Made by a program: the position numbers and the translations under genes
In this document: piece after piece, positions 3,573-22,188 of the stretch
Layout of the letters: every line of letters starts with the position of its first letter
How positions within the stretch are numbered: the stretch's first letter is position 1
NCBI GenBank assembly: GCA_002067795.1
Contig: MVQI01000024.1
Span: forward strand, 1-25,156
DNA: 25,156 nucleotides
Direction: 5' to 3'
DNA from: Methanosaeta sp. PtaB.Bin039
GTDB taxonomy: Archaea; Halobacteriota; Methanosarcinia; Methanotrichales; Methanotrichaceae
Notes under the pieces: model-generated
What the model was told of the DNA's origin: nothing
The model's input: the letters and a program-made list of their open reading frames with translations, nothing else
Database searches by the model: none

Positions 3573-3581
3573 TGATTGATC

Positions 3582-4412: not shown

Positions 4413-4422
4413 GTGGGCGTGA

Positions 4423-7114: not shown

Positions 7115-7151
7115 AGATCAATCGCAAGCTACTAGCCCGCGGCCGTCCAGC

Positions 7152-7158
7152 AAAAAAA
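7152..7158 (-). terminator. Oligo-T tract (TTTTTTT on the minus strand) downstream of the FmdE-like gene. A T5 tract on the plus strand at 7196..7200 lies downstream of the ABC operon. Both are in the convergent intergenic region.
   Basis: Archaeal intrinsic termination occurs at oligo-T runs. Both runs lie in the 90-nt gap between convergent genes. Confidence 0.35.
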
Positions 7159-7205
7159 GTTGCCAGGAAGCACCAATCTGGCACTGTCCCACTGACCCAA
7201 TTTTT

Positions 7206-8321: not shown

Positions 8322-8663
8322 ACAAGCCAAAATCTCTTCGTCTATGACAGATGGCTTAACCGACCTCGTGATATCGGTTCAGTGCCAATATCCGGGCCTT
8401 GGCCAATACGATAATTGAAGCTGCGCCCAACATTTATGAATGTTTCTATATTTAGTAGCACAAAGAATTAATATACGAGAATTGTCTGTGACTGGAGCAG
8501 ATGAAACAGCTGCCAAGATCACATCTGAAATAAGAAATAGCATAGCTGCAATTCGATTCAGATATGTGTCTTCGTTTTCGCCGGGCTGCAAAATCGCCTG
8601 GCGAAAAAAAAGAGACAGAAGATCCCTGCTGTTGACTGGGGAAATGGGAGATGCAAGAGATCG

Positions 8664-10247: not shown

Positions 10248-11204
10248 ATGCCAAACCTCAACGTGGTGGTCCTGGGTCCAGCCGGCTACTCCAAGGAGCT
10301 GGGAAAGACGGGAACCACTAGCGATATGACCTTTTACAATCTGAAAAGGGGCGAGGATACCGTCACCTTCATAGAGCCCACCCGCTACCCGGAACGTCTG
10401 GCACCCCTCTTTTACGCAGCAACTCTTGCCAGGATGGCGGTTTTGGTGGTGGAGAAGATCGATCCGGCATTCGGAGAGTGCGTCCTGATGCTCGACTGCC
10501 TGGGCATATCCTCCGGCTATCTGATCCTCCGCAACTTCATCCAGAAGGAGCAGGTCTTGCCGCTCATCAAGGGAACGGTCGCAGAGGGCTATGAGCTGCT
10601 GGCAGACGATCCCATTGTCCTGCGTGAGCGCCTGCTGGAAGAGGCGACAAAGGAGAATCCGGCCTTAGACGCTCCCGTTGGCAGCATGCCTGTGGACCAC
10701 TTCTTCAGCGTCCGCGGCGTCGGCACGGTTGTCCTTGGTGCTGTCACCCGGGGCAGCTTAAAGAAGCACGACTCGTTGCGAATCCTGCCGGGCGAAAAGA
10801 CCGCCCAGATCCGCTCGATTCAGAAGCACGACCAGGATTTCGATGCGGCTGGTCAGGGTGAGAGGACCGGACTTGCGCTGAAGGGAATAGAGGTGGACGA
10901 CCTTGACCGCGGCGTTGTGCTCACCACTGATCCGTCCATCAAGGTCAGCAGCTCTGTGCAGGCAAAAGCGCGGCTGGTAAAATACTGGCCATCGCCGCTG
11001 AAGGAAGGCATGGTGCTGCACCTGGGCCACTGGATGCAGTTCGTGCCTGCCAGGGTCGAGTCGGCCAGCGGAGACGACTGGCACAGGCCACTTCTTCAGC
11101 TATCCCTCGACAAGCCACTCGTGCATCCGCCAGGCGCCTCTGGAGTGCTCACCTATCCGGAAGGAGGCAAGCTTCGAGTCGTGGGGACGGTAGAGCTGCC
11201 CTGA
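10248..11204 (+). CDS. EF-Tu/EF-1alpha/SelB-like protein with degenerate GTPase motifs (pseudo-GTPase paralog of translation elongation factors)
   Basis: The N-terminus NLNVVVLGPAGYSKELGK aligns with the EF1A G1 region NLVVIGHVDHGKST but lacks an intact P-loop. FIEPTRYP replaces the G3 FIDAPGH. Domain II beta-barrel signatures are well conserved (FSVRGVGTVVLGAVTRGSLKKHDSLRILPG...IRSIQKHDQDFDAAGQGERTGLALKGIEVDDLDRG). Confidence 0.6.
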   Translation: MPNLNVVVLGPAGYSKELGKTGTTSDMTFYNLKRGEDTVTFIEPTRYPERLAPLFYAATLARMAVLVVEKIDPAFGECVLMLDCLGISSGYLILRNFIQKEQVLPLIKGTVAEGYELLADDPIVLRERLLEEATKENPALDAPVGSMPVDHFFSVRGVGTVVLGAVTRGSLKKHDSLRILPGEKTAQIRSIQKHDQDFDAAGQGERTGLALKGIEVDDLDRGVVLTTDPSIKVSSSVQAKARLVKYWPSPLKEGMVLHLGHWMQFVPARVESASGDDWHRPLLQLSLDKPLVHPPGASGVLTYPEGGKLRVVGTVELP

Positions 11205-11256
11205 GAGGATCGGGGAACTCTAATCCCTCAGGGCCAGCCCCAAACACCACGCACTT

Positions 11257-11290
11257 ACACGCTTTTTCGGAAAAACCTGAAAAAGCGTGT
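11257..11290. terminator. Perfect 11-bp stem hairpin (acacgcttttt / aaaaagcgtgt, 12-nt loop) between convergent genes. It is a likely bidirectional terminator.
   Basis: I read it directly: ACACGCTTTTT cggaaaaacctg AAAAAGCGTGT. T-runs lie inside both arms. It is located in the 236-nt convergent gap 11205..11440. Confidence 0.4.
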
Positions 11291-11440
11291 TTCTCATGGG
11301 GCAGGTCTGAAAAGCCTGTCAGATTTTGCCAGGGAACCGAAAGATCGGATAAGAAAAGGAAAGGTCGAAGAGGATTGCGATAGGGAATTTGGTCCGGCCG
11401 AACACCTGCGGCCGAAACCGTCCTGTTGCCCATCTCCGTC

Positions 11441-12223
11441 TCACTGGGTCAGCCCTGCCCTCCACTTCAGCATCCTCTCCTCAACCACGTAGCGGAAGGC
11501 CCTGTCGATGAACAGGCCCAGCAATCCCAGGACTATCATGTAGAGGAGCACGTACTCCATCTTGTGCAGGTAGTAGTACGACCAGATGCGGTAGCCCAGC
11601 CCGCTGGTGCTGACACCGAACATCTCTGCAGCTACAAGGCACATCCAGGATATGCCCATGGCGATCCTTACGCCTCCGGCTATTGAGGGCAGGGCGTACG
11701 GGAAAGCCACGTAGCGGATAAGGTCTCGATTGCTTGTAGCACCCAGCACCTTGGCCGACTCCACGAATACCCGAGGCAGGCTTCTAAATCCCACATAGGT
11801 GTTGATCAGTATGGGAAAGACCGCTCCGACAAATACGATGAACCCGGCGGACTCGTGAGTCAGGCCGAACCAGACGATGGCGAACGGTATCCAGGCCAGC
11901 GGAGGTATGGGCCGTATCACCTCCACCATGGGGTCGATCAGCCGGTCCATGTGCCTAGACCATCCCATTCCCATGCCCAGTGGAAGGGCGAGGAGCACTC
12001 CGGCTCCCATGCCCAACCCGAAGTGAAGCAGGCTTATTGGCAGATCCTGAAATATCAGGGTCTTCCAGCTTGCCTCGAGGGCGACGAGGACCTGCAGAAA
12101 GCTGGGCAGGATCAGGGTGTCGCCCACGAGCATTGCCACGGCCTGCCATACAAGGACCAGGCTGGCAAGGGAGAGGGCGGAAATCCACTCCCTGCGAAGC
12201 GTCTTCGCCCAGTCGCCGTTCAT
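11441..12223 (-). CDS. ABC transporter permease, NitT/TauT family (SsuC/TauC-like; sulfonate/nitrate/taurine type)
   Basis: This is a binding-protein-dependent inner-membrane component fold with 6 TM helices. The EAA-like loop region is ESAKVLGATSNRDLIRYVAFPYALPSIAGGVRIAMGISWMCLVAAEM. The track ORF starts at a TTG at 12283 and would overlap the upstream gene by 20 nt. The ATG at 12223 (MNGDWAKTL) lies 40 nt after the binding-protein stop and is preferred. Confidence 0.85.
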   Translation of the reverse strand: MNGDWAKTLRREWISALSLASLVLVWQAVAMLVGDTLILPSFLQVLVALEASWKTLIFQDLPISLLHFGLGMGAGVLLALPLGMGMGWSRHMDRLIDPMVEVIRPIPPLAWIPFAIVWFGLTHESAGFIVFVGAVFPILINTYVGFRSLPRVFVESAKVLGATSNRDLIRYVAFPYALPSIAGGVRIAMGISWMCLVAAEMFGVSTSGLGYRIWSYYYLHKMEYVLLYMIVLGLLGLFIDRAFRYVVEERMLKWRAGLTQ

Positions 12224-12263
12224 CTTCGACTCCTGCCTGAGCCTGGTATCGCGATCCAGCTCA

Positions 12264-13241
12264 TCAGGCCTTCGCCCTGTCAAAGAAGCTGGTGTCGAAG
12301 AGCTCCTCCTCAGACAGCTCCTTTTGGGTGTAGTTCATCTGATAGTCCACCTTGGCATACTCCAGGGTAGAGGGGATCTGGATGTGGGGATCGCTCACCC
12401 ACTCGCCGTCCCAGTTCTTGACGGAGTGCATGACCGTCTTGAGATCCTGCTTGGTGCGGTTGGCGTAGATCTCCGCAGCCTCCTCCGGATGGGAGTTAAC
12501 ATACTCGGTTGCCTTCAGGTGGGTCTTGACGATCTGAGCCACCAGCTCCGGATTGTCCCGGATCAGCCGGCCGCTGACAACAAGGCTGCAGCAGGCGTGG
12601 TTGGGCCACATCTGGCCGGAGGGCAGCGCCTCCTGTCCTTTGCCCTCCAGGATGACTATCGACGGCGACGGTGCAGGCAGGAAGACCCCATCGACCTTGC
12701 CGGCGGAGATGGCAGTAACTGCATCTCCCGGCCCCATGGGCAGGATCCTTACCTTGTCGATGTCAACTCCGTTTTCCTGCAGCCACTTCTTCATCACAGT
12801 GTCCTGGATTGACCCAGGCGGAAATGTGCCGATGCTCATCCCTTCAAGTGAGGACGGTCCCAGATAGGCTTTATCTGGCCTCAGGACAAGGTCGGAGCCG
12901 TTGGTATTGACGGCGGCCACGATCTTGGCATCCAGGCCGCTGGCAATTGCCGAGATCGGCGGGGCTGTTCCTACGTAGGCCACATCAAGGCTTCCGGCCA
13001 GCATGGCCTGCATCTCAGGCGGACCGGAGGGAAATTCGAACTCCTTTATCTCGGTAATTCCGAAGGGCTTCAAGTCCTCCAGCCACCATCCTTTCTCCAT
13101 GGCCACCATCTCGGCGATCTGGTGGGTGCTGGGCTGGTAACCTATGTTCAATGTGGTCACCTCGGCCTTCTTCTCCGAGATGCAACCCAGCGTAGCAACC
13201 ACTGCCAGGGCAACAACAGCAATAATTATCTGGCTTCTCAA
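12264..13241 (-). CDS. ABC transporter substrate-binding lipoprotein, NitT/TauT (SsuA/TauA/NMT1-like) family
   Basis: It has a lipoprotein-type signal peptide with a lipobox-like LGC (M/L-RSQIIIAVVALAVVATLGC|ISEK). Its periplasmic binding-protein class II architecture is similar to aliphatic sulfonate/taurine binders (LNIGYQPSTHQ...DVAYVGTAPPISA). The only available start is a TTG at 13241, because a TGA stop lies 2 codons upstream in frame. Confidence 0.8.
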   Translation of the reverse strand: MRSQIIIAVVALAVVATLGCISEKKAEVTTLNIGYQPSTHQIAEMVAMEKGWWLEDLKPFGITEIKEFEFPSGPPEMQAMLAGSLDVAYVGTAPPISAIASGLDAKIVAAVNTNGSDLVLRPDKAYLGPSSLEGMSIGTFPPGSIQDTVMKKWLQENGVDIDKVRILPMGPGDAVTAISAGKVDGVFLPAPSPSIVILEGKGQEALPSGQMWPNHACCSLVVSGRLIRDNPELVAQIVKTHLKATEYVNSHPEEAAEIYANRTKQDLKTVMHSVKNWDGEWVSDPHIQIPSTLEYAKVDYQMNYTQKELSEEELFDTSFFDRAKA

Positions 13242-13675: not shown

Positions 13676-14932
13676 ATGAGATCGGCTTTCGAGATCTCGG
13701 AGAAGATAAGAAGAGGCCACGGAGTGGTGATGACAGTCGGCGAGCTCCAGCATCTGGCCGAGAGCGGAGACGGAGAGGGGATCGAGGAGGTTGACGTCAT
13801 AACCACAGCTACCCGTGCGGTCATGAGCGGAACTTATGCCGTTCTATCCTTTCCGGCAGCCTGTCCGGGCGCGTTCATCAGGGCCAGGTCTGCCAGGCTC
13901 AACGGCGTCTTGGCCAATGTGGGCCCATGCCCCAACGAGCGGCTGGGTGTGCTCGATCTGGTGGTGTTCGGCACCGGACACAGGGATGCCAGATATGGCG
14001 GCGGGCATCTATTCCGGGACCTGGTTGAGGGAAAAGGGGTGACAGTGGAGATCGAGACGTCAGATGGCCGAATCCTGAAGGACGAGACCTCCCTTGCACG
14101 GATGCAGTCCGCGCGGCTATTCGGAAGCCGCCACTGCTTCAAGAACTACTCCGCCTTCGTCAATCCGGGATGCCAGGATGTAAGGACCATATTTCATGCG
14201 GTCGGCTTTCCGCCGAACCTGGCTGCAGCCACCTTCTCCGGATGCGGCCGCTACAGCCCGCTGCAGTGCGATCCTCTTTTAGAGGGCATCGGCGCAGGCA
14301 GCCGAATACTGATGAACGGCGCAACAGGCATGGTAATTGGGCCCGGCACACGCAGCAGCAAACAGCGCCCGAACCTTAGCGGATTTGCCGATATGGCTGG
14401 AATGGACCCGCAGCTGATGGGCGGCTTCATCACGTCGGCAGGCCCGGAATGCATCTGCTCCTGGGCTGTGGCAATCCCTGTTGTCAGCCCATCCATTTTG
14501 CAGGCTGCCCTGACCCCTGACCGGGATATCCACATGCCTGTGATGGACGTCGTAGAGCGCAGGCCACTGGGAGAGGCAGACTACGGCCAGGTCTGGGACG
14601 ATGTGGACCTGGCGGTGCGATTCTCACCTCAGGCGTGCCGAGGCTGCCAGGCCTGCCAGGCAGAGGAGAGCTGTCCCACCCAGGCGATTGGCCGGGATAA
14701 AGGGATAAGGATTGACCGCAGCCTGTGCTTCAACTGTGGGCTTTGTTCTACGATCTGTCCGGACGTCTTCGCCGCCAGGCTGGGATCGATCGGGCTTGCA
14801 GGAAGACAGGTGCCGGTGGCCATGCGCCAGTCTGACCGGGCCAGGGCCCAGAAGATGGCTGCTGACCTGAAACGGCGAATACTCGACGGCTCTTTCCAGA
14901 TAACTCCGATGATCGATGCTATCCGGTTCTAG
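13676..14932 (+). CDS. COG1900/DUF39-domain protein with C-terminal 2x[4Fe-4S] ferredoxin domain. It is a homolog class of MA3299/MJ1681, a putative sulfoacetaldehyde-to-CoM sulfur-inserting enzyme. The homocysteine-synthesis protein MA1821 is a related paralog.
   Basis: The N-terminus ISEKIRRGHGVVMTVGEL matches the conserved start of DUF39 proteins. The C-terminus carries two ferredoxin-type cysteine motifs, CRGCQACQAEESCP and CFNCGLCSTICP. Its genomic context is convergent with comDE, and its stop overlaps the comE stop region by 14 nt. GGTGA lies 6 nt upstream of ATG 13676. Confidence 0.7.
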   Translation: MRSAFEISEKIRRGHGVVMTVGELQHLAESGDGEGIEEVDVITTATRAVMSGTYAVLSFPAACPGAFIRARSARLNGVLANVGPCPNERLGVLDLVVFGTGHRDARYGGGHLFRDLVEGKGVTVEIETSDGRILKDETSLARMQSARLFGSRHCFKNYSAFVNPGCQDVRTIFHAVGFPPNLAAATFSGCGRYSPLQCDPLLEGIGAGSRILMNGATGMVIGPGTRSSKQRPNLSGFADMAGMDPQLMGGFITSAGPECICSWAVAIPVVSPSILQAALTPDRDIHMPVMDVVERRPLGEADYGQVWDDVDLAVRFSPQACRGCQACQAEESCPTQAIGRDKGIRIDRSLCFNCGLCSTICPDVFAARLGSIGLAGRQVPVAMRQSDRARAQKMAADLKRRILDGSFQITPMIDAIRF

Positions 14933-15449
14933 TGGGGAGACAAGAGGTGAACCGGTCCCGGATCTGAAGAGGGGAGAGTGGGATGATCGGTACTTCGGCG
15001 TTTCCAGGCTCTACCCGGACAACCAGGACGCCGGATCGGTCAAGGCTGCGTCGCAGTTCCTCCGAAGTGGCGGCCTGGCCGACCTCCTCCACGCCGGCTG
15101 CCCTTGCCATCTGGACGAGATCGGTCTTCTGGGCTGTGCAGGTCAGCTGGCAGCCTGTGGAGCCGTAAGAGCAGTTATCAAGGATTATCAGCAGGTAGCC
15201 AGAAGGCGCATGGTGAGCGATCGTGGCCAGGGTGCCCAGGTTCATGAGGACTGAGCCGTCGCCGTCGATGACGAAGACCCGGCGTCCGCTGGCCAGCGCA
15301 AGCCCGAGGCCGATTGAAGAGGCGAGCCCCATCGAGCCCAGCATGTAGAAGTTCTCAGGCCGGTCGTAAACAGCGTAAAGCTCCCTGCTGGGATAGCCGA
15401 TGTTGCAGACGAGCAGGGCTTTCTGCCTCACAGCCTGCCCCGCCACCAC
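14919..15449 (-). CDS. comE: Sulfopyruvate decarboxylase beta subunit (thiamine-diphosphate-binding)
   Basis: It has the TPP-binding motif GDGS...N (VIDGDGSVLMNLGTLATI). LVCNIGYPSRELYAVYDRPENFYMLGSMGLASSIGLGLA closely matches the ComE N-terminus of methanogens. The start is a GTG at 15449. Confidence 0.85.
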   Translation of the reverse strand: MVAGQAVRQKALLVCNIGYPSRELYAVYDRPENFYMLGSMGLASSIGLGLALASGRRVFVIDGDGSVLMNLGTLATIAHHAPSGYLLIILDNCSYGSTGCQLTCTAQKTDLVQMARAAGVEEVGQAATSEELRRSLDRSGVLVVRVEPGNAEVPIIPLSPLQIRDRFTSCLPTRTG

Positions 15450-15493
15450 CTCGATAGCCTCGATGCGTCTCGTATACAGGCCTCCTCAGCTCT

Positions 15494-15967
15494 TCAGATC
15501 CCCTTCCAGAAGTCCAGGTCGAGGAGCACTGCCGCCAGAGTACCCCTTTCCCATGCTGCTGCAGCGGCATGGGCCACGAACGACCTGGCCTGCTGCGGCC
15601 GTGGTGTCCAGCTTGGTATGCCCAGAGCATCCAGCAAGGGCGCGGTCAGCCGGCCCATCGGGATCTGGCCGGAGATCTTCTCCCCACTGGACCCCCTGTG
15701 GCTTATTATCATCAGCAGGGGCAGCCCGTAGAGCTGATCCAGCGAGGCAAGGGCGTTGATGCTATTTCCCAGGCCGGAGTTTTGCATCAGAAGTGCAGGA
15801 CGGAGGCCTCCCAGGAAAGCTCCGGCGCAGATCCCTACCCCCTCCTCCTCCCTGGTGACCGGGACGAAGCGTATCTCAGGATCTGCCTCGACCATAGTCA
15901 GCAGCTCCTGTAGGTTGATGCAGGGGACGCTGGCCGCAAAGTCGATCCCGCCATCCTTCATCCCCAT
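15494..15967 (-). CDS. comD: Sulfopyruvate decarboxylase alpha subunit
   Basis: The TPP-enzyme N-terminal (pyrimidine-binding) domain is present: PVTREEEGVGICAGAFLGGLRPALLMQNSGLGNSINALASLDQLYGLPLLMIISHRGSSGEKISGQIPMGR. The track ORF extends to 16072 with a low-complexity 35-aa N-extension. I placed the start at the ATG at 15967 (MGMKDGGIDF). The ATG at 15961 is an alternative. A 44-nt gap separates it from comE, which is in a different frame. The two are therefore separate genes, as in Methanocaldococcus, and not the fused comDE of Methanosarcina. Confidence 0.85.
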   Translation of the reverse strand: MGMKDGGIDFAASVPCINLQELLTMVEADPEIRFVPVTREEEGVGICAGAFLGGLRPALLMQNSGLGNSINALASLDQLYGLPLLMIISHRGSSGEKISGQIPMGRLTAPLLDALGIPSWTPRPQQARSFVAHAAAAAWERGTLAAVLLDLDFWKGI

Positions 15968-16128
15968 GAAGATCCAATGGCTTGGGCTCGCAGGATGCTG
16001 GCCAAAAGTGGCCGAATGTCCATCAGAATCGGCTTGCCTGGGCGTTGGCGGCTTGATGTCCATCACCTTCATCTGCTGCAGCTTCTCTCCTGTTTTTCAG
16101 TGGATAAGCGACACCATCGTGGAGGATT

Positions 16129-16575
16129 TCAACGGCTGATGTTTCCGCCGCTGGCCTGGCCGCCCCTCAGATCTGCAGAGCCGGAGAGCTGTTCTTCAAG
16201 CAGAGTGATCATCCAGTTGTAGGCATCCTTAAGCCCCTGCACGTAGCCGGCCTTATACCCCTCCTGGTATCCCCGCAGATAGTCTTCCTGGACATCGGCA
16301 GATGGAGCGGTCCCTGCGAAGCGGCTCGATTGCGATCCTGCCATCCCGTATCCGGATGTGGCCGCGGTCCCTGTCGAGTGAGCCGAAGCAGACTTCTCTG
16401 AAGAGGAGGTCTTGCTCTGCAGCTCGGATCTCGTTGTCGAGGACCCATTGCCGATCGGATTTTGGCCTTCGGCCTCGTCAGGTCCAAAATCCTCGTCCCA
16501 TGGCTGGGATATGCCTGATGATCCTCCCACCACGGCAGCCCCCAGCACGATCAGAAGTAGCGCCAATCGCATCAT
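16129..16575 (-). CDS. Small secreted hypothetical protein with low-complexity Ser/Thr/Gly-rich middle region
   Basis: A signal peptide is present (MMRLALLLIVLGAAVVGGSSG). A long S/T/G-rich linker follows. The structured C-terminal segment EDYLRGYQEGYKAGYVQGLKDAYNWMITLLEEQL contains a Y-x-x-G-Y repeat pattern. It has an ATG start and sits directly upstream of comD on the same strand. Confidence 0.5.
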   Translation of the reverse strand: MMRLALLLIVLGAAVVGGSSGISQPWDEDFGPDEAEGQNPIGNGSSTTRSELQSKTSSSEKSASAHSTGTAATSGYGMAGSQSSRFAGTAPSADVQEDYLRGYQEGYKAGYVQGLKDAYNWMITLLEEQLSGSADLRGGQASGGNISR

Positions 16576-16955
16576 GATTTATCCTCTCCAGGAAGTGCTG
16601 GCCTCTCCTGCCTGCCAGCATATTGATCCACCGCTATGCCCTCTTTGGGCACCCAGCAGATATAATTTAGCCTGCTCTTCCGCATGGCCTGAAAGCCAGC
16701 TGCCTAAATAGAACATCTCACCCGCGGCTGCACAGCAGCTCTATTTCTTCTCTTCGTCGGCGCGTCTCATCCACTTAAGCAATATCCCGATCAGAGCCTG
16801 CGGTTGATGGACGCTTTACTGTCTGGACGAGGGGGCTATCCATCAGCCGAAAAGCAGGTGCCTGGACGGCATGACGGATGAAATAGCTGCTGGCGGCCCT
16901 CTGCATGGACTCAGCGAAATTGTCCAGCCATAGCAAAGATATAAATGGATTTAAC

Positions 16956-17819
16956 ATGACAAATTATATTAGAGATTCGTTTGGGGTGAGGCAATTGAGA
17001 AAGTTCGCTGTAGCTATGCTGGCGTGCCTTATGGTTTTATTACTTGCCACTCAGGCATCGGCCAGCCTGGATCAGTTCGCCGGACGCTGGGTCAACGCGG
17101 ACTCAGCCACAAGGGGAGTAACCACACTGGAGATAACCGTATCGGATAGCGATGCAACCGTCCAGGCCTGGGGCAGCTGCGTGCCGACCGACTGCGACTG
17201 GGGAGCGGTGCAGGCCGTGGCCTACGCGCCGGACGTATCTTCGGATATTGCCAGCACCGCCCTGGCCCTGACAGCTGGGTTTGATCCCGGATTTGCAGAG
17301 ACATTGATGGTAATCAGGCCAGACGGCGATCAGCTGTCGGTTCAGACCTTCACAAGGTTCAAGGACAGCAGCGGCCGCAGCAACTACGCTGCCGAGTACA
17401 GCTTCGTCAAAGAGGCGGGCGTTGTGCCCGAAGGACAGACTCCTGAGGGTGGCCTGCCCCCAGAAGGACAGACGCCTGAAGGCGGGCTGCCTGAGGTTGC
17501 CTTGCCAGCCCCAAGGCTGATCTCGCCGGTCGATGGGGTCGTATTCTACCACTACCCCAGGACAACTACATTGGCCTGGGAGCCGGTGGAGGGAGCCGAT
17601 ATCTATGGAGTTGAGATCGACTGCTTCCACTGCTGCCAGTCAGGCCAGTGGTGCACCGATGTCGGAGACACTTATCGGGTAGTGGACTTGCTGAACACAA
17701 CCAGCTACACCTTCGACTTCGTCGGTGCTCAGCCAGGTCGGTGGAGAGCCTGGGCCATCAGCCCGTCTGGAGAGATCGGTGAGAAATCGGCGTGGTGGGG
17801 ATTCGAGTACACCCAGTGA
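16956..17819 (+). CDS. Secreted hypothetical protein with an internal tandem PEGQTPEGGLP repeat
   Basis: A signal peptide is present (MTNYIRDSFGVRQLRKFAVAMLACLMVLLLATQASA|S). The tandem repeat PEGQTPEGGLP-PEGQTPEGGLP separates two Cys-containing domains (CVPTDCDWG; CFHCCQSGQWCTD). The track start at 16905 is also possible. An ATATAAAT TATA-like element lies at 16940..16947. Confidence 0.55.
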   Translation: MTNYIRDSFGVRQLRKFAVAMLACLMVLLLATQASASLDQFAGRWVNADSATRGVTTLEITVSDSDATVQAWGSCVPTDCDWGAVQAVAYAPDVSSDIASTALALTAGFDPGFAETLMVIRPDGDQLSVQTFTRFKDSSGRSNYAAEYSFVKEAGVVPEGQTPEGGLPPEGQTPEGGLPEVALPAPRLISPVDGVVFYHYPRTTTLAWEPVEGADIYGVEIDCFHCCQSGQWCTDVGDTYRVVDLLNTTSYTFDFVGAQPGRWRAWAISPSGEIGEKSAWWGFEYTQ

Positions 17820-17991: not shown

Positions 17992-18651
17992 TTACCAAAC
18001 CTTCAGGTCTATCCCCTCAATCCTCACCATCCGACCCTCGGAGTGCACAACCACTCCGGAATGCACCTTCTGCATCATGCAGTGCTCAGGCAGGAAACGG
18101 ACGGTCTGGCCCACAGACGGGATACTGCCACGGACCACCAGGCCTTCAAATGCTGCCACCATGCAGACGCCAAGGTCGTTGTATTCGGCCTGCTGTCCCA
18201 GCAGGTGCAGCGGGCCTACCATATGAACGGTCAGAATGCCGTGCTCCCATCCAAGCACCCGGGCGAAATGGGTCACCGGACAACCAAGTGGGCGATAGCG
18301 GATAAGGTCGCCTGGGCAAAATGTGAGACTTCGATCGAATGGAAATAGGTCCTCACGACAGGAGGGCTCGCCAGGCAGCGGCCCCAATGAGAAGTCAGCC
18401 AAAAGGCCGTCTATAACTCCCCGAACAGTCTCCTCCGACGCGGCCCTATTGCCGGAGAGGACTTCTCGGATGCCTTCTGCATGTCCTGCAAAGCGCTCCT
18501 GCCCAAGATAGGGACACTGCCCCGTATCGCCGCCACCGCTTGCCAGCAGCTGAGCGAAATTTTGGCAGCTCCTCTGGCCGCACTCTCCGCAGTTGAATCC
18601 GGGAAGCAGCCGCTCCACCTGTTCTGATAGGTTCAAGGCCTTGGTCCTCAC
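17992..18651 (-). CDS. Fe-S protein with an N-terminal RnfB/AcsC-type putative [4Fe-4S] domain (C-x2-C-x4-C...C) and an uncharacterized Cys-containing C-terminal domain
   Basis: The N-terminus [30 protein letters not shown] matches the PF04060-type cluster motif of the RnfB N-terminus and the corrinoid Fe-S protein large subunit. The C-terminal region has further Cys/His ([21 protein letters not shown]). The GTG start overlaps the upstream gene's stop (GTGA). Confidence 0.6.
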
Positions 18652-19346
18652 TCACCGGAGTATTCCATAAATCCGTCCATATGCCTGAGAACACCCCGGT
18701 GATATCGCTTGGAGACTCGCAGCTCGCCGCTGCAAAGAGTGCAGACGGCCAGCGGCGGATTGTGGCGGAGCATCATATTCTCTGCGGCAGGCGGAAGCGC
18801 CCGGATTATCTCTGCCAGATCGCTCCCGCCCTTCCCGGTAAGTCCATTGGCCTCAACTATCCTGCAATGCGGATTGGCCTCGAGCACCCTCTCTCTGAAA
18901 ACCTCGCGCTCGGCCTGCGATACCAGATCGCATTTGGTCGTGACCACCACGTCTGCGGTGGTCAGAAGCGGTCCAACCTTGAGCGGGGTGTTGGGTCCGG
19001 TCGTAACATCGATCACGCAGACGGCCAGGCAGTGGTCGGGATAGGGGGCGCACCTGAGACACAGCCCGGCAGTCTCGTTGAGCAGGACATCTGCATCCTG
19101 CTTCTTTGCCCATTCGAGCATCTCGTCCACGTTATATATGGAGAAGTGATCGGGACACATGTCCCTGGAGAGCGCCACATGTACCGGAATTCCCAGGCGG
19201 CCGATGCGCTTGTCGTCCTCAGTCCACAGGCAGTCCACCTTTACAACTGCTGGCCGGCTGCCGGATCCCTCAAGACACCTGGCCGCATGCATCAGGACCG
19301 ATGTCTTGCCTGATCCGGGGGTGCCAGCTATCACCACAAGCTTCAC
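18648..19346 (-). CDS. G3E-family P-loop GTPase (HypB/UreG/CobW/MeaB-like metallochaperone class) with a C-terminal CxxC motif
   Basis: It has G1 GTPGSGKTS, an E-x-x-G switch II variant LLNETAGL (G3E hallmark) and an NKxD-like TKCDL. The C-terminus carries CTLCSG. The GTG start overlaps the ABC ATPase stop (GTGA). Confidence 0.65.
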
Positions 19347-20104
19347 AGGGCCGCCTCCGCGGCGCTGACGGTCTCACCCCTGCGAATGGCCTCCCGCAGG
19401 TTGATCAGCCACCGGTCCACACGGCTCAAGCTGTTACAGACCTTTTGCTCCTCCTCGCTTGTCTGGATTACCCGGACCATATTTCCCTTCTTCATGACCA
19501 CACGCCGAGAGGTCATAAGGGCCAGGACCGGATCATGGGTGACCACCACCACGATCTTGCCCTCGCCTGCCAGGAGCTTGAGAGCCTCTTGCTTCTTGAT
19601 CCCGGCATTTTCTATCTCGTCGATGAGGACAATTGGAGAGTCGCTGATAACCGCTATATCGGCTGTCATCAGGGCCCGCGACTGGCCTCCGCTCAGAGCG
19701 GTCAGGTGGTGCTCCGGGTGTATGGGCTCGCCGGTCAGGGTGTTGGCGAGATCTATCACCTTTGCGATCAGGTTCTCCTCCCTACCACGGCTCTTTGCAT
19801 GCATTGCCAGGAAGTCCGAGACCGTCATATCTGCCAGGAAATGCATATTCTGGGAGAGCTGAGCCACAGGCTTTCTGCGCGGATCTGCCCTGACCTCTGC
19901 ATCTGGAGGCTGGCCATCGATGAGCACCTGGCGGCGGGATTCCGTATCTCTTTGGGCAAACTGCTCCAGGTCGGATATCAGCGTGCTCTTCCCTGACCCG
20001 GTTGGCCCAACGATTCCGACGATCTCGCCGCTATCGATATGTAGTGTCTCTATGTGATCCGCACATCCATCTTTGTCCACGCCACCCAGAATTGTAAGCC
20101 TCAA
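19343..20104 (-). CDS. Orphan ABC-type ATPase (single nucleotide-binding domain, no adjacent permease) with a ~45-aa C-terminal extension
   Basis: It has Walker [10 protein letters not shown], signature LSGGQSRAL, Walker B VLIDEIE and H-loop VVTHD. The TTG start lies 6 nt after the cysteate-synthase stop, in the same reading frame as that gene, separated by one TGA. Confidence 0.8.
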
Positions 20105-20110
20105 TTTTCG

Positions 20111-21409
20111 TCAACTCCTGATGAACTCCAGTACCTGCTTCTCCAGGTCGTCGGCCGGATGCCCCGGCCTGACCTTCATCTGGCAGGGAAGGATCGACGG
20201 CCCTAGTTCTTCCCAGGACCGCTTGACACCGCCTCCTGTGATGTTTAGGAGGACCATCTCTTCCTTTCTTACCGCCCCATCCTCCATTGCTTTCAGAAGC
20301 GCTGCAACTGCCACTGCTGGCGCCGGGAGGATGTCTATGCCTTCGCTGGACTCAAACAGCTGCCTGGCAGCTTCAGCCTCATCGTTGGCGACCCCCAAAA
20401 CAGCTCCGCTCGTCTCACGCAGGGCCTGCTCAACCCCCCCAGGAATGGCGTAGGGTGGATTTCTGTTGAACAGGACATCGTCATACATCTCATCCGGGCA
20501 GCCAAGCCCTTTCCATATCTCCGATAATCCTGACGGGGACTCGCCGCCAGGACCCGTCCATAGCCTATGAATAGGCGCACATGGCAGGTTTTGGGCCAGA
20601 TGCAGCCTGGGGATATTTGATCCGAAGCGGCCGTCTCCCGCCAGCCGCAATGCCGCCTCCCACGCAGCGATACCGCCGGTGCCGCTGCCCACTGCCTGGA
20701 AGTAATGATCTGGGATCACACCTGCGGTTGCGGCTGCCTCCAGCATCACTGTGCCCATCCCGTCACGCCGGGCGATGTTCCTGGCGCCGCCTTCCGGAAG
20801 GAATCCGGGGCGGCTGGCCAGACGGTCGGCCGCCTGTATGGCGTCAAGATAGTCGCCTTCTACTCCTGCCAGGCAGATCCGCCCGGGCTCCACCGTGGTC
20901 CACAGCCTGTGCAGAGAGGACGTCGGTACAAAAAGGACAACGGGTCGACCGGTCAGCGAGGCGGTCTGGGCGAAGGCCCTGGCTGTATTTCCTGCCGATG
21001 CCACAACCAGTACAGGGGCATTGTGCCCTCCCGGCACTCCGGCGACGGGCCTGGCAGTCTCGGATAGGCGCTGCATCGTGGGAGCTGCTTCCAGCTCCTT
21101 GAAGCTGCCGGTGACCATCGATGCTCCCATCTCTGGCCAAAAACCGGAGAAGCTTATAAAGAGCCTCTGAAGGCCTATCTCCCTGGCCAGTCCCTGGCTC
21201 TGATAGCACACCGATCCGGCGCCAGTTCGCATATCAGGGCTCTTTACCGGAAGCCAGGCAAGATGACGCCATACACCCGGCAGGTCCGCTATCTCCAGCC
21301 GCTTCTGGGAATAGACCGCACGCGGCAGCCCAGGATCCAGCCGACAGCTAGTGGCCAGATCATGGAGGACGGAGCCGCAGCCCTGGCAGCATACCTTGTA
21401 ATCTCCCAT
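20111..21409 (-). CDS. Cysteate synthase-like PLP enzyme (threonine-synthase/TrpB fold-type II family). Given the neighbouring comD/comE and DUF39 genes, it is most likely the Methanosarcinales-type cysteate synthase of CoM biosynthesis.
   Basis: It has the PLP-lysine motif VTGSFKELEA (family pattern T-G-S-F-K-D/E), the glycine-rich PLP phosphate loop VGSGTGGIAAW and an N-terminal Cys cluster CCQGCG. I cannot distinguish it from a true threonine synthase by sequence alone. Confidence 0.65.
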   Translation of the reverse strand: MGDYKVCCQGCGSVLHDLATSCRLDPGLPRAVYSQKRLEIADLPGVWRHLAWLPVKSPDMRTGAGSVCYQSQGLAREIGLQRLFISFSGFWPEMGASMVTGSFKELEAAPTMQRLSETARPVAGVPGGHNAPVLVVASAGNTARAFAQTASLTGRPVVLFVPTSSLHRLWTTVEPGRICLAGVEGDYLDAIQAADRLASRPGFLPEGGARNIARRDGMGTVMLEAAATAGVIPDHYFQAVGSGTGGIAAWEAALRLAGDGRFGSNIPRLHLAQNLPCAPIHRLWTGPGGESPSGLSEIWKGLGCPDEMYDDVLFNRNPPYAIPGGVEQALRETSGAVLGVANDEAEAARQLFESSEGIDILPAPAVAVAALLKAMEDGAVRKEEMVLLNITGGGVKRSWEELGPSILPCQMKVRPGHPADDLEKQVLEFIRS

Positions 21410-21669
21410 GATACACAGACCTCTCTCGCGGGGGCATATAATGTTTTCTGTTTATATCGATTTTTTATCCTTATTGGGAATATTGACAAATATAAGTTTC
21501 CTTTAATGGATACATTCCGGCCGAAAACATGCCAATTGGACCCGGCGGCAGGGGATGGATGAGTGCCCTTCAGAGCAGTAGCAGCATGCTGGAATGGCCC
21601 TTCTAATTCCCGCGGTTATCAGCATTGGATTCCAAAAGTACAAATATCATAAAATCGTAACCCAATAGT
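21410..21669. promoter_or_regulatory. Divergent AT-rich promoter region between the cysteate-synthase operon and the HTH regulator. TATA-like elements lie about 25-30 nt from each start codon, which suggests leaderless or short-leader transcripts.
   Basis: On the minus strand, CATTATAT lies about 30 nt upstream of ATG 21409. On the plus strand, AAATATCATAAAAT lies about 25 nt upstream of ATG 21670. Confidence 0.4.
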
Positions 21670-22188
21670 ATGCCACATACCGACCGGGTGATGAGAGCGG
21701 CCTTCCAGTCAGACGAGGCTTTGCGGGAGGCCATGAAGGCCGTCCTCGGCGAACTGGGCATGAGCGCGCGGGAGTTCTCCAAGCATTCTGGAATACCCCA
21801 GAGCACACTTTACAAGATCTTATCAGGCCATCGGGAGCCGAACATAACCACGCTTCGCCAGATCGTCCGAACAATCAGGCAGCTCGAGGGATCTGACGCC
21901 AAGTTCATAGCCATCATAGCTGCGAGGCCGGTTCTGGACAAGATCGAGGAGAAGAAGATGCGCATCGGCGACCGGATGATGACACTCCGAGAGTACTCGG
22001 CAACCAACATCGAGGAGGCCATTATCGCTGCAGTGCGAGCCGAGGCCGACGGAGCCGCAGCCCTGGTCTGTGCCCCAATCGTCAGCCCAACCGTAGAGAA
22101 GCTGCTATCCATCCCGGTAGCAACAATAATTCCCAGGGAGAGCGTCCTTCGGGCCATCGAGGTGGCTGCGAGAAAGGCGGAGGAATGA
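21670..22188 (+). CDS. HTH (XRE-like) transcriptional regulator with a C-terminal uncharacterized (possibly ligand-binding) domain
   Basis: GMSAREFSKHSGIPQSTLYKILSGHREPNITTLRQIV is a canonical helix-turn-helix. About 100 aa of Ala/Ile-rich alpha/beta domain follows it. The gene is divergent from the cysteate-synthase operon. Confidence 0.7.
   Translation: MPHTDRVMRAAFQSDEALREAMKAVLGELGMSAREFSKHSGIPQSTLYKILSGHREPNITTLRQIVRTIRQLEGSDAKFIAIIAARPVLDKIEEKKMRIGDRMMTLREYSATNIEEAIIAAVRAEADGAAALVCAPIVSPTVEKLLSIPVATIIPRESVLRAIEVAARKAEE

What the first reader, a model, noticed from the sequence alone, without database searches (positions are those of the whole stretch)
17992..21409. Uncharacterized three-gene module (orphan ABC ATPase, G3E GTPase with CxxC, RnfB-type Fe-S protein) co-operonic with cysteate synthase
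Four minus-strand genes are packed with almost no spacing. There is a 6-nt gap after the cysteate-synthase stop, then two GTGA stop/start overlaps, which implies translational coupling and a functional unit. The first gene is a cysteate-synthase-like enzyme, which performs CoM biosynthesis step 1 (phosphoserine + sulfite -> cysteate).

The three partners are (i) a single-NBD ABC ATPase with no permease, (ii) a G3E-family GTPase of the metallochaperone class with a C-terminal CxxC, and (iii) a protein with an RnfB/AcsC-like 4Fe-4S domain plus an unknown Cys/His-containing domain. None of them belongs to the described CoM pathway.

The physiological source of sulfite for cysteate synthase in Methanosarcinales is, to my knowledge, unresolved, and sulfite is toxic to Mcr. 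A dedicated ATP/GTP-driven, Fe-S-containing accessory module for generating, channelling or activating the sulfur substrate would be novel. A module that matures a metal site would also be novel.
Basis: partly seen in the sequence, partly recalled or inferred. Interest (0 to 1): 0.8.

Follow-up and report, generated by a model that had tools for sequence, protein, structure and literature searches.

The report
Sulfur-handling NTPase trio in coenzyme M operon
Three uncharacterised genes (a soluble ABC ATPase, a HypB-like GTPase and a small iron-sulfur protein) really are fused into the cysteate-synthase operon. The same trio also occurs on its own in many anaerobic bacteria, often with a cysteine desulfurase, so it looks like a general sulfur or metal-cluster handling machine rather than a dedicated sulfite maker.

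Summary
Cysteate synthase (TIGR03844, 545 bits), an ABC ATPase, a G3E GTPase and a PF04060 Fe-S protein form one tightly coupled minus-strand operon. It sits inside a full coenzyme M (CoM) island with SsuAC, MMP16/ComF and ComDE.

The synteny is real. Cysteate synthase lies directly upstream of the trio in 53 of 57 informative genome loci of Methanotrichaceae and relatives. Methanomicrobiales carry trio-MMP16-CS-ComDE operons.

The co-localisation is not new. A 2025 PLoS Genetics paper notes it in a figure legend and calls the role unknown.

What I add: the trio is autonomous and widespread. Bacteroidota-like bacteria, Phycisphaerae and Omnitrophota carry it with no CoM genes nearby, and relatives of the Fe-S protein are also named in WOR-3, Acidobacteriota and Oligoflexia. 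In the bacterial clade a NifS-type cysteine desulfurase sits directly upstream of the Fe-S protein gene in 18 of 41 informative loci. Rrf2, CysK/CBS-like and MetY genes recur nearby.

The Fe-S protein has a CFeSP/RnfB-type [4Fe-4S] domain plus a beta-barrel with no solved relative. That barrel carries invariant Cys124, His128, Cys191 and His197. The GTPase keeps the HypB metal ligands.

Best reading (confidence about 0.4): an NTP-driven reduced-sulfur or metallocluster mobilisation module recruited to CoM biosynthesis, probably serving ComF. A sulfite-generating role is not excluded but is unsupported.

The parts
20111..21409 (-). Cysteate synthase (CS), first gene of the operon
   Evidence: TIGR03844 scores 545 bits against a cut-off of 324.9; PF00291 also matches. 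All threonine-synthase models fall below their cut-offs.
19343..20104 (-). Soluble single-domain ABC ATPase. TTG start 6 nt after the CS stop. Motifs: Walker A G33-S40, LSGGQ 137-141, Walker B/catalytic D162-E163 (DEIENAG), H-loop H190, plus a ~40-aa C-terminal helical extension.
   Evidence: PF00005 at 59.8 bits. The best NCBIfam transporter models reach 60 bits or less against cut-offs of 250-970. The closest solved chains are MacB and LolD nucleotide-binding domains at about 50-60 bits. Motifs were read. There is no permease in the operon.
18648..19346 (-). HypB/UreG-like G3E GTPase. Start overlaps the ATPase stop (GTGA). Motifs: P-loop G8-T15, C64-P-D-H67, E91-T-A-G-L-C96-L-R-C99, and a C-terminal C202-x2-C205...H216.
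   Evidence: PF02492 at 51 bits; TIGR00073 (HypB) at 54.9 bits, below its 121.2-bit cut-off. The alignment to A. fulgidus HypB (2wsm) places CPDH on the HypB Cys-His motif and the CLRC motif next to the HypB Cys that follows Walker B. All motifs are conserved in archaeal and bacterial homologues, except that the C-terminal CxxC...H tail is missing from the shortened L087 copy.
17992..18651 (-). COG2000-type Fe-S protein (FES). Start overlaps the GTPase stop (GTGA). It has an N-terminal [4Fe-4S] domain and a C-terminal beta-barrel domain.
18514..18591 (-). Codons for the C21-x2-C24-x4-C29-x16-C46 [4Fe-4S] motif of FES
   Evidence: These four Cys are invariant across all clades (alignments A3 and A4).
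18061..18282 (-). Codons spanning the family-wide invariant R120 (just upstream), C124-P125, H128, C191 and H197: the candidate Cys2His2 metal or sulfur site of FES
   Evidence: These residues are invariant in A3, which spans sequences of 32-65% identity, and in the bacterial alignment A6. In the model each Cys/His pair flanks a beta-hairpin loop.
21410..21669 (.). AT-rich divergent intergenic region, the presumed promoter region for the operon and its regulator
   Evidence: Read from the sequence. No archaeal promoter tool was available, so this is an inference.
21670..22188 (+). Divergent HTH_3 regulator with a PrpR_N-like C-terminal domain, conserved next to the CoM/trio operon
   Evidence: PF01381 at 39.5 bits. 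It is found upstream of CS in most Methanotrichaceae loci. An orthologue with 44% identity lies upstream of the trio in Methanoculleus.
15494..16072 (-). Sulfopyruvate decarboxylase alpha subunit (ComD)
   Evidence: TIGR03845 at 199 bits against a cut-off of 148.
14919..15449 (-). Sulfopyruvate decarboxylase beta subunit (ComE)
   Evidence: TIGR03846 at 226 bits against a cut-off of 221.5.
13676..14932 (+). Methanogenesis marker 16 / CoM synthase ComF (COG1900 domain plus ferredoxin domain)
   Evidence: TIGR03287 at 483.5 bits against a cut-off of 364; PF01837 at 313 bits.
11441..13241 (-). SsuA (12264-13241) and SsuC (11441-12283), a sulfonate (CoM-type) ABC importer, with no adjacent SsuB
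   Evidence: TIGR01728 at 164.6 bits and PF00528. No further nucleotide-binding domain motif occurs in the window.

Best explanation
The three genes encode a self-contained, NTP-driven module that mobilises reduced sulfur or a metal-sulfur centre. Class II methanogens and ANME archaea have recruited it into their CoM biosynthesis operons.

Proposed mechanism:
1. The Fe-S protein (FES) is the working part. A CFeSP/RnfB-type [4Fe-4S] domain passes electrons to a beta-barrel that carries an invariant Cys2His2 site next to invariant or near-invariant arginines.
2. The HypB-like GTPase keeps the HypB interface ligands (CPDH and CxxC) and adds a C-terminal CxxC...H tail. It loads or gates a metal (Ni, Fe or Zn) or a bridging cluster at that site.
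3. The soluble ABC ATPase dimer acts as SufC does in SufBC2D, driving the conformational cycle or the hand-off.
4. The sulfur input is a NifS persulfide in bacteria and free sulfide in methanogens.
5. In the CoM operon the output (activated sulfide, persulfide or an Fe-S unit, plus electrons) most likely serves the thiol-forming, Fe-S-containing last enzyme, ComF/MMP16. The sulfur donor of that enzyme is unknown.

Shown: the domain content, the conserved ligands, the operon coupling, the distribution and the gene neighbourhoods. Inferred: the metal identity, the direction of transfer, the role of the ATPase and the ComF client.
For: 1. The trio is an autonomous unit. The same ABC-GTPase-FES order, with overlapping or nearly abutting genes, is found in Methanotrichaceae and ANME-2, ANME-1, Methanomicrobiales, Bacteroidota-type genomes, Phycisphaerae and Omnitrophota.

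2. Bacterial-clade neighbourhoods come from 80 metagenome loci.
- A NifS/IscS-type cysteine desulfurase (496 bits to TIGR03402) is present in 35 loci.
- It lies directly upstream of FES in 18 of the 41 loci with enough upstream sequence.
- An IscU/NifU gene appears in only one locus, so FES occupies the position a scaffold gene normally takes after the desulfurase gene.
- Rrf2 (CymR/IscR-like) occurs in 11 loci, Crp/Fnr in 7, a CBS/CysK-like gene in 5 and MetY in 4.

3. FES carries four invariant cluster cysteines plus invariant R120, C124, H128, C191 and H197 across sequences of 32-65% identity. Its N-terminal domain matches only electron-transfer cluster domains of CFeSP and RnfB.

4. The GTPase metal ligands align with those of HypB and are conserved in all clades. 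The trio proteins are more conserved than CS itself: median identity to the window is 75% for the GTPase, 71% for the ATPase, 61% for FES and 56% for CS.

5. MobB-like P-loop proteins fused to a PF04060 domain exist as NCBIfam families (PRK14494 models). This weakly supports a direct interplay between an NTPase and this cluster domain.

6. Link to ComF. The FES gene overlaps the MMP16 start in Methanoculleus and abuts MMP16 in L086. In ANME-1 the trio's only CoM neighbour is MMP16. ComF is the only enzyme of the pathway with predicted Fe-S domains in these scans. The literature says the sulfur species and electron count for ComF are unknown, and that the paralogous enzyme L-ASST needs a sulfur-trafficking helper, MA1715 (PMC12068725).
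Against: - No experiment bears on this module, and the metal is unknown.
- In the most species-rich arrangement (Methanotrichaceae) the immediate neighbour is CS, not ComF. In Methanogenium the order is trio-CS-ComDE with ComF elsewhere. In ANME-2c, FES pairs with ComD and has no NTPase genes within 10 kb. The archaeal association is therefore with the pathway as a whole, not with one step.
- None of the 80 bacterial-clade loci carries a COG1900 gene, so any client there must be different.
- The ATPase shows no specific similarity to SufC. The barrel has no detectable relationship to IscU, NifU, SufB or HypA.
- I could not measure the spatial clustering of the four Cys/His ligands, because model coordinates are not exposed.
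- One lineage places the trio in a glycan-biosynthesis cluster, which this model does not explain.
Confidence: 0.4

Rival explanations
1. Sulfite supply. The trio oxidises sulfide or persulfide sulfur to sulfite, with NTP hydrolysis helping to push the electrons onto low-potential carriers. It hands the sulfite to cysteate synthase so that free sulfite never reaches Mcr.
For: - CS lies directly upstream of the trio in 53 of 57 informative loci and is translationally coupled in the window. Methanogenium has trio-CS-ComDE.
- The sulfite source for CoM is unresolved (PMC6286981).
- FES has several invariant or near-invariant arginines near the Cys2His2 site, which would suit an oxyanion.
- A NifS persulfide could be the sulfur input in bacteria.
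- One lineage embeds the trio next to a sugar-nucleotide SDR and a YeiH-family 'putative sulfate export' transporter.
Against: - No recognised sulfite-using or sulfite-forming enzyme recurs next to the trio in the 80 bacterial-clade loci. The recurrent partners handle sulfur at the -2 or 0 oxidation level (NifS, CysK/CBS-like, MetY, Rrf2).
- The CBS/CysK-like neighbour also partly matches the CapA cysteate synthase model, but at 254 bits against a cut-off of 600.
- The L087 SDR is GalE-like, not SQD1-like.
- From my own knowledge, there is no precedent for a 4-6 electron oxidation with oxygen from water by a 24-kDa protein carrying one [4Fe-4S] cluster and one small site.
- In ANME-1 and Methanoculleus the adjacent gene is ComF.
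- No name in the homologue lists I could see came from a class I methanogen, although those organisms also need sulfite. These lists are truncated, so this is a weak argument.
Confidence: 0.1
2. FES is a small redox enzyme or reductive activator whose job is not sulfur delivery, for example keeping an oxygen-sensitive CoM enzyme such as ComDE reduced. The GTPase and ATPase are simply its dedicated metal-insertion and assembly factors, as UreG and HypB are for urease and hydrogenase.
For: - G3E GTPases are typically co-operonic maturases of one metalloenzyme (family knowledge).
- The HypB-type ligands are conserved.
- FES pairs with ComD alone in eight ANME-2c loci.
- The FES N-terminal domain is the type used for reductive electron delivery in CFeSP.
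- From my memory of Graupner et al. 2000, which I did not check here, M. jannaschii ComDE is inactivated by oxygen and reactivated by dithionite.
Against: The bacterial hosts have no ComDE nearby. The frequent insertion of NifS between the GTPase and FES genes, and the Rrf2 regulators, point to sulfur or Fe-S chemistry rather than a generic redox role.
Confidence: 0.15
3. The genes are ordinary maturation factors for a known Ni enzyme: HypB for [NiFe]-hydrogenase, or a CODH/ACS accessory set. Their position next to CS is incidental.
For: The best family hits are HypB for the GTPase and the ACDS gamma subunit (CdhE) and RnfB for the FES N-terminus.
Against: - All these hits are far below the family cut-offs: 55 against 121 bits, 34 against 306, and 31 against 69.
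- No hypA or hypC-F, cooC or cdh genes lie nearby in any locus examined.
- The trio is conserved with CoM genes across archaeal orders, and it stands as an operon in bacteria with none of those genes nearby.
Confidence: 0.03
4. The 'orphan' ABC ATPase is the missing SsuB energiser of the nearby SsuAC sulfonate importer.
For: SsuA and SsuC at 11441-13241 have no adjacent ATPase, and the window holds no third nucleotide-binding domain.
Against: - The ATPase scores 60 bits or less against every transporter ATPase model. The genuine importer ATPase in the same window scores 230 bits.
- It is invariably coupled to the GTPase and FES, including in loci with no ssu genes.
- Its D-loop region is atypical (DEIENAG).
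Confidence: 0.02

Closest known systems
HypB / UreG G3E metallochaperone GTPases (Ni insertion into hydrogenase and urease)
   Same: Shares the P-loop, the ExxG Walker B and a Cys-(Pro-Asp)-His motif that aligns with the HypB Cys-His. It also has a Cys after Walker B at the presumed dimer interface.
   Different: Scores below the HypB and UreG cut-offs. It has an extra Cys (CLRC) and a C-terminal CxxC...H tail. No HypA, SlyD or UreE/F/D partner genes are nearby. It is always paired with an ABC ATPase and a PF04060 protein.
SufBC2D / SmsCB Fe-S scaffold complexes with the soluble ABC ATPase SufC
   Same: Both use a permease-less ABC ATPase encoded with a Cys-bearing acceptor protein. In bacteria a cysteine desulfurase and an Rrf2 regulator are encoded alongside.
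   Different: There is no sequence relationship to SufB or SufD. The ATPase is not specifically SufC-like; its nearest solved relatives are MacB and LolD domains. A G3E GTPase is an added component.
NifS-NifU / IscS-IscU (a desulfurase followed by a scaffold that carries a permanent redox cluster)
   Same: In 18 of 41 informative bacterial loci a NifS-type gene directly precedes FES. FES combines a permanent cluster domain with a second Cys/His site, as NifU does.
   Different: No homology to NifU or IscU is detectable. The candidate site is Cys2His2 on a beta-barrel that has no solved relative.
N-terminal [4Fe-4S] domain of the corrinoid iron-sulfur protein large subunit (AcsC/CdhE) and of RnfB
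   Same: Shares PF04060 with the CX2CX4CX16C motif. These are the best matches among solved structures (E = 4e-9 to CFeSP 4djd_C).
   Different: FES has no TIM-barrel or corrinoid-binding part, no ferredoxin dicluster domains and no membrane anchor. Its scores fall below the RnfB and CdhE cut-offs.
MA1715-type sulfur-trafficking helper of the COG1900 enzyme L-ASST in Methanosarcina
   Same: Conceptually the same: an accessory factor that makes sulfide usable by a COG1900 aldehyde sulfurtransferase (PMC12068725).
   Different: Different protein families. No relationship to the trio was tested.
The trio itself, as noted in PLoS Genet 2025;21:e1011695, Fig 2 legend
   Same: It is the same three families (an ATPase, a 'Ni2+ binding GTPase' and a 'COG2000 domain Fe-S protein') co-localised with CoM genes.
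   Different: That paper assigns no function. In the text I searched it does not mention the bacterial distribution, the NifS/Rrf2 association or the conserved Cys2His2 site.

Membership tests
Cysteate synthase (TIGR03844) | Whole-protein score above the curated cut-off, with threonine-synthase models failing | tested here: met
   545 bits against a cut-off of 324.9. The best ThrC model scores 78 bits against a cut-off of 303.
ABC transporter ATP-binding subunit | Walker A, Q-loop, LSGGQ signature, Walker B with catalytic Glu, and H-loop | tested here: met
   [20 protein letters not shown] and THD are all present. PF00005 scores 59.8 bits against a cut-off of 25.
ABC transporter ATP-binding subunit | A cognate permease or substrate-binding partner encoded with it, and a score reaching a named transporter family | tested here: not met
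   No permease occurs in the operon in any of about 100 loci with the complete trio. All NCBIfam transporter models score 60 bits or less against cut-offs of 250-970.
SufC (the ATPase of Fe-S scaffold complexes) | Specific similarity to SufC and a SufB/SufD partner gene | tested here: not met
   SufC is not among the best 25 NCBIfam hits or the top 20 solved-structure hits. No SufB or SufD gene is adjacent.
HypB (TIGR00073) | Score above the curated cut-off | tested here: not met
   54.9 bits against a cut-off of 121.2.
HypB (TIGR00073) | G-domain metal ligands (Cys-His in the switch region and a Cys after Walker B) | tested here: met
   C64-P-D-H67 and C96/C99 align with the HypB ligands in 2wsm and are conserved in all clades.
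HypB (TIGR00073) | Works with HypA/SlyD and the hyp operon for [NiFe]-hydrogenase | tested here: not met
   No hyp genes occur in the window or in any locus examined. The whole genome could not be searched.
G3E P-loop GTPases (PF02492) | Pfam gathering score | tested here: met
   51 bits against a cut-off of 20.7.
PF04060 putative Fe-S cluster domain | Gathering score and the four-Cys motif | tested here: met
   38.6 bits against a cut-off of 23. C21, C24, C29 and C46 are invariant.
RnfB (TIGR01944) / ACDS gamma subunit CdhE (NF003195) | Full-length match above the cut-off, including the ferredoxin dicluster domains or the corrinoid-binding domain | tested here: not met
   31.5 bits against a cut-off of 68.7, and 33.9 against 306. 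Only the first ~55 residues match.
COG2000-type '(Fe-S)-binding protein' family | Full-length homology including the C-terminal barrel with C124, H128, C191 and H197 | tested here: met
   726 homologues were found, and the best 120 listed are 55-99% identical over at least 93% of the query. The family is narrow: 177 clusters among 1.84 billion representative proteins. The ligands are invariant.
IscU / NifU / Nfu Fe-S scaffolds | Sequence or fold similarity to a known scaffold domain | tested here: not met
Any Fe-S / sulfur mobilisation system (functional class) | Accepts sulfur from a desulfurase or sulfide and passes it, or a cluster, to a client | not testable with these tools
   This needs biochemistry. 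Only gene-neighbourhood evidence is available.

The most novel reading that the evidence does not exclude
The trio is an anaerobic, NTP-driven sulfite synthase. FES oxidises sulfide or NifS-derived persulfide sulfur to sulfite at its Cys2His2/Arg site, while the GTPase and ABC ATPase push the electrons to low-potential acceptors. This would supply cysteate synthase in methanogens and would answer the long-standing question of where the sulfonate sulfur of CoM comes from.
Probability: 0.1. Interest if true: 0.95.

Novelty: new variant of a known kind. Interest (0 to 1): 0.62.

Why it matters
CoM is essential for all methane formation and for anaerobic methane and alkane oxidation. Two aspects of its biosynthesis are still open: where the sulfite comes from, and how sulfur and electrons reach the last enzyme, ComF. 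A conserved, uncharacterised, energy-consuming three-protein module wired into the CoM operon is the obvious candidate for one of these gaps.

The same module stands alone in many anaerobic bacteria, often with a NifS-type desulfurase and Rrf2 regulators. This suggests a previously unrecognised sulfur or metallocluster mobilisation system alongside NIF, ISC, SUF and SMS/MIS. Its ingredients are unusual: a G3E GTPase, an ABC ATPase and a PF04060 protein whose metal-binding barrel has no solved relative.

The finding gives concrete handles for testing: four invariant ligands, two NTPases and a natural NifS partner.

Tried and rejected
- **Searching with the most diverse FES alignment (A3).** A narrower alignment (A5) returned only the 80 best of 408 loci, all Methanotrichaceae, ANME-2 or close relatives, so other orders had to be reached through single-protein look-ups.
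- **SQD1 idea.** I considered whether the SDR interleaved with the trio in L087 is a UDP-sulfoquinovose synthase, which would have supported the sulfite hypothesis. It is GalE-like: 92 bits to GalE, and only an N-terminal 31-bit match to the sulfoquinovose synthase model. Its nearest solved structures are UDP-glucose 4-epimerases, and its motif is YYHQK, not the YH..K I recall for SQD1. Rejected.
- **Bacteroidota and cysteate.** I considered that the trio might travel with the sulfonolipid cysteate synthase CapA. No such gene lies in the Bacteroidota-type loci, and NCBIfam shows that a CysK-like protein partly matches the CapA model, which suggests CapA belongs to the CysK family rather than the ThrC-like family of the archaeal enzyme. 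Rejected.
- **An M. acetivorans orthologue and its response to CoM starvation.** The paper's expression table is truncated in the held copy. The ABC genes I could trace (MA0063-65) are ssuBCA. Inconclusive. I do not know whether Methanosarcina or class I methanogens carry the trio.
- **Literature.** Searches for COG2000, PF04060 and related term combinations found no functional study.
- **Also rejected:** hydrogenase or CODH maturation, and the SsuB reading of the ATPase (see the rival explanations).

Full report
**1. What is in the window**

Four minus-strand ORFs occupy 21409 to 17992:
- a 432-aa PLP enzyme (20111-21409)
- a 253-aa ABC ATPase (19343-20104)
- a 232-aa G3E GTPase (18648-19346)
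- a 219-aa Fe-S protein, called FES here (17992-18651)

The sequence shows the first stop codon, a 6-nt spacer and an in-frame TTG start. AGGAG lies 10 nt upstream of that start. Two GTGA stop/start overlaps follow, and a GGAGG lies 7 nt before the GTPase start. A divergent regulator gene bounds the unit upstream and a convergent gene bounds it downstream, so it is a discrete four-gene operon.

The PLP enzyme is a genuine cysteate synthase (CS): TIGR03844 scores 545 bits against a cut-off of 325, and every threonine-synthase model fails. They reach no curated orthologue group. HypB scores 55 bits against a cut-off of 121. RnfB scores 31 against 69. CdhE scores 34 against 306. No transporter ATPase model exceeds 60 bits.

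The window as a whole is a CoM island. It carries:
- SsuC and SsuA (11441-13241)
- MMP16/ComF (13676-14932; TIGR03287, 483 bits)
- ComE and ComD (14919-16072)
- two secreted proteins with no family hits
- the operon and its HTH regulator

**2. Prior knowledge**

A full-text search found that Chadwick et al. (PLoS Genet 2025;21:e1011695; PMC12068725, preprint PMC11844431) already remark on this trio in the legend of Fig 2. [quoted passage not shown] The co-localisation is therefore published, but the function is open.

The same paper stresses two further points. The sulfur species and the electron count for ComF are unknown. The paralogous enzyme L-ASST needs a sulfur-trafficking helper, MA1715.

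Yu et al. 2018 (PMC6286981) confirm that the origin of sulfite for CoM is unresolved. Searches for COG2000, PF04060 and related term combinations found no functional study.

**3. Synteny in archaea**

A scan of one genome per GTDB species found 408 loci encoding an FES relative. The best 80 were kept, and all are Methanotrichaceae, ANME-2 or close relatives. Among these 80:
- 63 carry the complete ABC-GTPase-FES trio.
- CS lies directly upstream of the ATPase in 53 of the 57 loci with enough upstream sequence.
- 8 ANME-2c loci have FES immediately followed by ComD.
- 10 loci have at least 1.8 kb upstream of FES but no NTPase gene there; L070 shows none within 10 kb.
- A few ANME-2 loci have a solitary FES.

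Median identity to the window proteins is 75% for the GTPase, 71% for the ATPase, 61% for FES and 56% for CS. The accessory proteins are thus under stronger constraint than the enzyme.

Other arrangements appear outside this group:

| Locus | Organism | Arrangement |
|---|---|---|
| L001 | ANME-2-like MAG | CS-ComDE, three genes, then the trio |
| L086 | Methanomicrobiales-type contig (organism not named) | HTH (divergent), then ABC-GTPase-FES-MMP16-CS-ComDE, tightly packed |
| L089, L090 | Methanoculleus | HTH (divergent), then ABC-GTPase-FES-MMP16-CS-ComDE; most junctions overlap |
| L088 | Methanogenium | trio-CS-ComDE |
| L084 | ANME-1 (Methanophagales) | trio convergent with MMP16, within a few kb of IscS, NifU, Thi4 and NadA |

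The association is with the CoM pathway as a whole. Depending on lineage, the immediate neighbour is CS, ComF or ComD.

**4. The trio outside CoM biology**

FES belongs to a narrow family: 177 clusters at E < 1e-3 among 1.84 billion representative proteins. The family is nonetheless not restricted to methanogens.

A clade 47% identical to the window protein sits in 6-Mb genomes with bacterial-type genes (F-type ATP synthase, L32p, FabH, bactofilin) and in a 'Bacteroidetes bacterium' MAG. There the trio follows a HisKA_3/NarL-type two-component system, and no CoM gene is nearby.

A more distant clade (32-34% identity) carries names from Phycisphaerae, Omnitrophota, WOR-3, Thermoanaerobaculaceae, Oligoflexia and a Helarchaeota MAG.

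I fetched 80 metagenome loci of this bacterial clade, clustered the neighbouring ORFs and annotated the recurrent clusters. Recurrent partners:
- A NifS/IscS-type cysteine desulfurase (496 bits to TIGR03402) is present in 35 of 80 loci. It lies directly upstream of FES, between the GTPase and FES genes, in 18 of the 41 loci with at least 1.3 kb upstream. The GTPase gene is the direct upstream neighbour in 16 more. Locus L091 showed the same arrangement earlier.
- An Rrf2 regulator with near-equal similarity to CymR and IscR occurs in 11 loci.
- A Crp/Fnr regulator occurs in 7 loci.
- A CBS/CysK-like enzyme occurs in 5 loci.
- An O-acetylhomoserine sulfhydrylase (MetY) occurs in 4 loci.

An IscU/NifU gene occurs in only one locus and a COG1900 gene in none. 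In many bacteria the unit is therefore [Rrf2/Crp]-ABC-GTPase-NifS-FES. This looks like a sulfur or Fe-S mobilisation operon in which FES takes the position a scaffold gene normally takes after the desulfurase gene. Methanogens use sulfide directly, and no methanogen operon I examined has a desulfurase gene inside it. I take this as consistent with the model.

**5. Anatomy of the proteins**

*FES.* Four cysteines (C21-x2-C24-x4-C29-x16-C46) are invariant. Among solved structures, the family profile matches only the N-terminal [4Fe-4S] domains of the corrinoid iron-sulfur protein and RnfB. Those domains are electron-transfer modules.

Across all clades the only invariant barrel residues with ligand character are C124, H128, C191 and H197. 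R120 is also invariant, and further arginines are near-invariant. Each Cys/His pair flanks a beta-hairpin loop in the model, the geometry seen in zinc-ribbon-like knuckles. This is an inference, because distances could not be measured. Other cysteines (C98 and C163 here; C119, C143 and C196 in bacteria) are clade-specific.

*GTPase.* It has the G3E P-loop and ExxG motifs. C64-P-D-H67 aligns with the HypB Cys-His metal ligands, and C96-x2-C99 sits next to the HypB Cys after Walker B. A C-terminal C202-x2-C205...H216 tail is also present. All of these are conserved from Methanothrix to Omnitrophota, apart from the tail in the shortened L087 copy.

*ATPase.* It carries every catalytic ABC motif, with an atypical DEIENAG after Walker B and a conserved C-terminal helical extension. 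Its nearest solved relatives are MacB and LolD nucleotide-binding domains at about 50-60 bits, not SufC.

NCBIfam also holds families in which a MobB-like P-loop protein is fused to a PF04060 domain (PRK14494 models). I read this as a weak Rosetta-stone hint that an NTPase and this cluster domain work together.

**6. Interpretation**

The only components conserved everywhere are the three proteins. The core activity must therefore be carried out by them, together with generic cellular partners.

The bacterial neighbourhoods tie that activity to sulfur at the -2 or 0 oxidation level and to Fe-S-type regulation. The GTPase ties it to metal handling. The FES N-terminal domain ties it to electron transfer.

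My best-supported model (confidence about 0.4) is a compact NTP-driven sulfur or metallocluster mobilisation machine:
- FES is the acceptor or scaffold, with a built-in electron-transfer domain.
- The G3E GTPase loads or gates the metal or cluster.
- The ABC dimer is the conformational motor, as SufC is in SufBC2D.

In CoM operons the most plausible client is ComF/MMP16. It is the only enzyme of the pathway with predicted Fe-S domains in these scans, it inserts the thiol sulfur, and its sulfur donor is unknown. It is the immediate neighbour of the trio in Methanoculleus, L086 and ANME-1.

The CS-adjacent arrangement in Methanotrichaceae and Methanogenium, and the FES-ComD pairs in ANME-2c, prevent a firm assignment to one step.

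Points in its favour are the CS adjacency, the conserved arginines and the open sulfite question. Against it:
- No recognised sulfite-using enzyme recurs near the bacterial operons.
- The one lead that could have supported it, an SDR next to the trio in L087, proved GalE-like rather than SQD1-like.
- From my own knowledge, the chemistry has no precedent for so small a protein.

Hydrogenase or CODH maturation, and an SsuB role for the ATPase, are effectively excluded.

**7. Caveats**

- All functional statements are inferences from sequence, a predicted structure and gene context.
- Homologue lists are capped at 120 rows and loci at 80. I therefore cannot say whether Methanosarcina or class I methanogens carry the trio.
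- Some MAG labels on Methanothrix-like contigs look like binning errors ('Anaerolineales' for L051, 'WOR-3' for L069).
- ORF calls in the metagenome loci were made with a simple longest-ORF rule, so the counts are approximate.

**8. Verdict**

The co-localisation was already noted in 2025. The function is still unknown. The bacterial distribution with NifS and Rrf2, and the invariant Cys2His2 site, are additions not found in the 2025 paper or in my literature searches. Together they make the question directly testable.

Noticed in passing
window 21670-22188 (+); L089 7927-8412 (-); most Methanotrichaceae loci: An HTH_3 regulator with a weak PrpR_N-like C-terminal domain is always transcribed divergently from the first gene of the CoM/trio operon. 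It is orthologous between Methanotrichaceae and Methanoculleus (44% identity). It is a candidate CoM-responsive regulator, and I found no mention of it in the papers I read.
   Followed up: partly
window 10248-13241; L003 13120-14954: SsuA and SsuC (a sulfonate or CoM importer) have no SsuB ATPase next to them. Instead, a 318-aa ORF with only an EF-Tu domain-2 / SelB / CysN-like region (10248-11204, +) follows. The same pairing occurs in L003.
   Followed up: partly
window 14919-14932: MMP16/ComF (+) and ComE (-) converge, and their 3' ends overlap by 14 nt.
   Followed up: no
window 16129-16575 (-) and 16905-17819 (+): Two ORFs with signal-peptide-like N-termini and no family hits separate ComD from the operon. 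The 304-aa ORF contains tandem PEGQTPEGGLP repeats. They appear unrelated to the module.
   Followed up: no
L087 8372-12982 (contigs holding other members of its protein cluster carry the same legionaminate synthase): A Methanomicrobiales-related variant reads FES, GalE-like SDR, ABC, then a shortened GTPase (185 aa, without the CxxC tail). It is embedded in a pseudaminic/legionaminic acid glycan cluster next to a YeiH-family 'putative sulfate export' transporter. No model I considered explains this.
   Followed up: partly
L082/L083 6796-10669; L097 4622-8586: In Bacteroidota-type genomes the trio directly follows a HisKA_3 sensor kinase and a NarL/GerE response regulator. These FES proteins are closer to the Methanotrichaceae clade (47% identity) than the Methanomicrobiales proteins are, which suggests transfer between domains.
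   Followed up: partly
L070 9998-11177 and seven similar ANME-2c loci (L020, L042, L052, L060, L062, L071 and one more): FES is followed 26 nt later by ComD alone. In L070, which has full 10-kb flanks, no ComE, ATPase or GTPase gene is detected. Related Methanogaster-type loci (L074, L043, L045) have a solitary FES beside a gene I took, from a glance at its N-terminal sequence only, to be a polyprenyl synthase.
   Followed up: partly
protein P0167 (210 aa): This ORF joins the N-terminal two-thirds of the trio ATPase directly to the C-terminal third of FES. It is either a real fusion or deletion, or an assembly artefact.
   Followed up: no
L084 1973-5829 and 12157-13065: In ANME-1 the trio-MMP16 pair sits among IscS, NifU, CysRS, Thi4, NadA and two GMC-type oxidoreductase genes. 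This is a dense sulfur and Fe-S cofactor neighbourhood.
   Followed up: no
window 2433-8330: Upstream of the CoM island lie a FecB/BtuF-type binding protein, a methyltransferase, an HflK-like protein, a FecCD permease with its ATPase, and an FmdE-domain protein (7206-8330, -). I saw no link to the finding.
   Followed up: no
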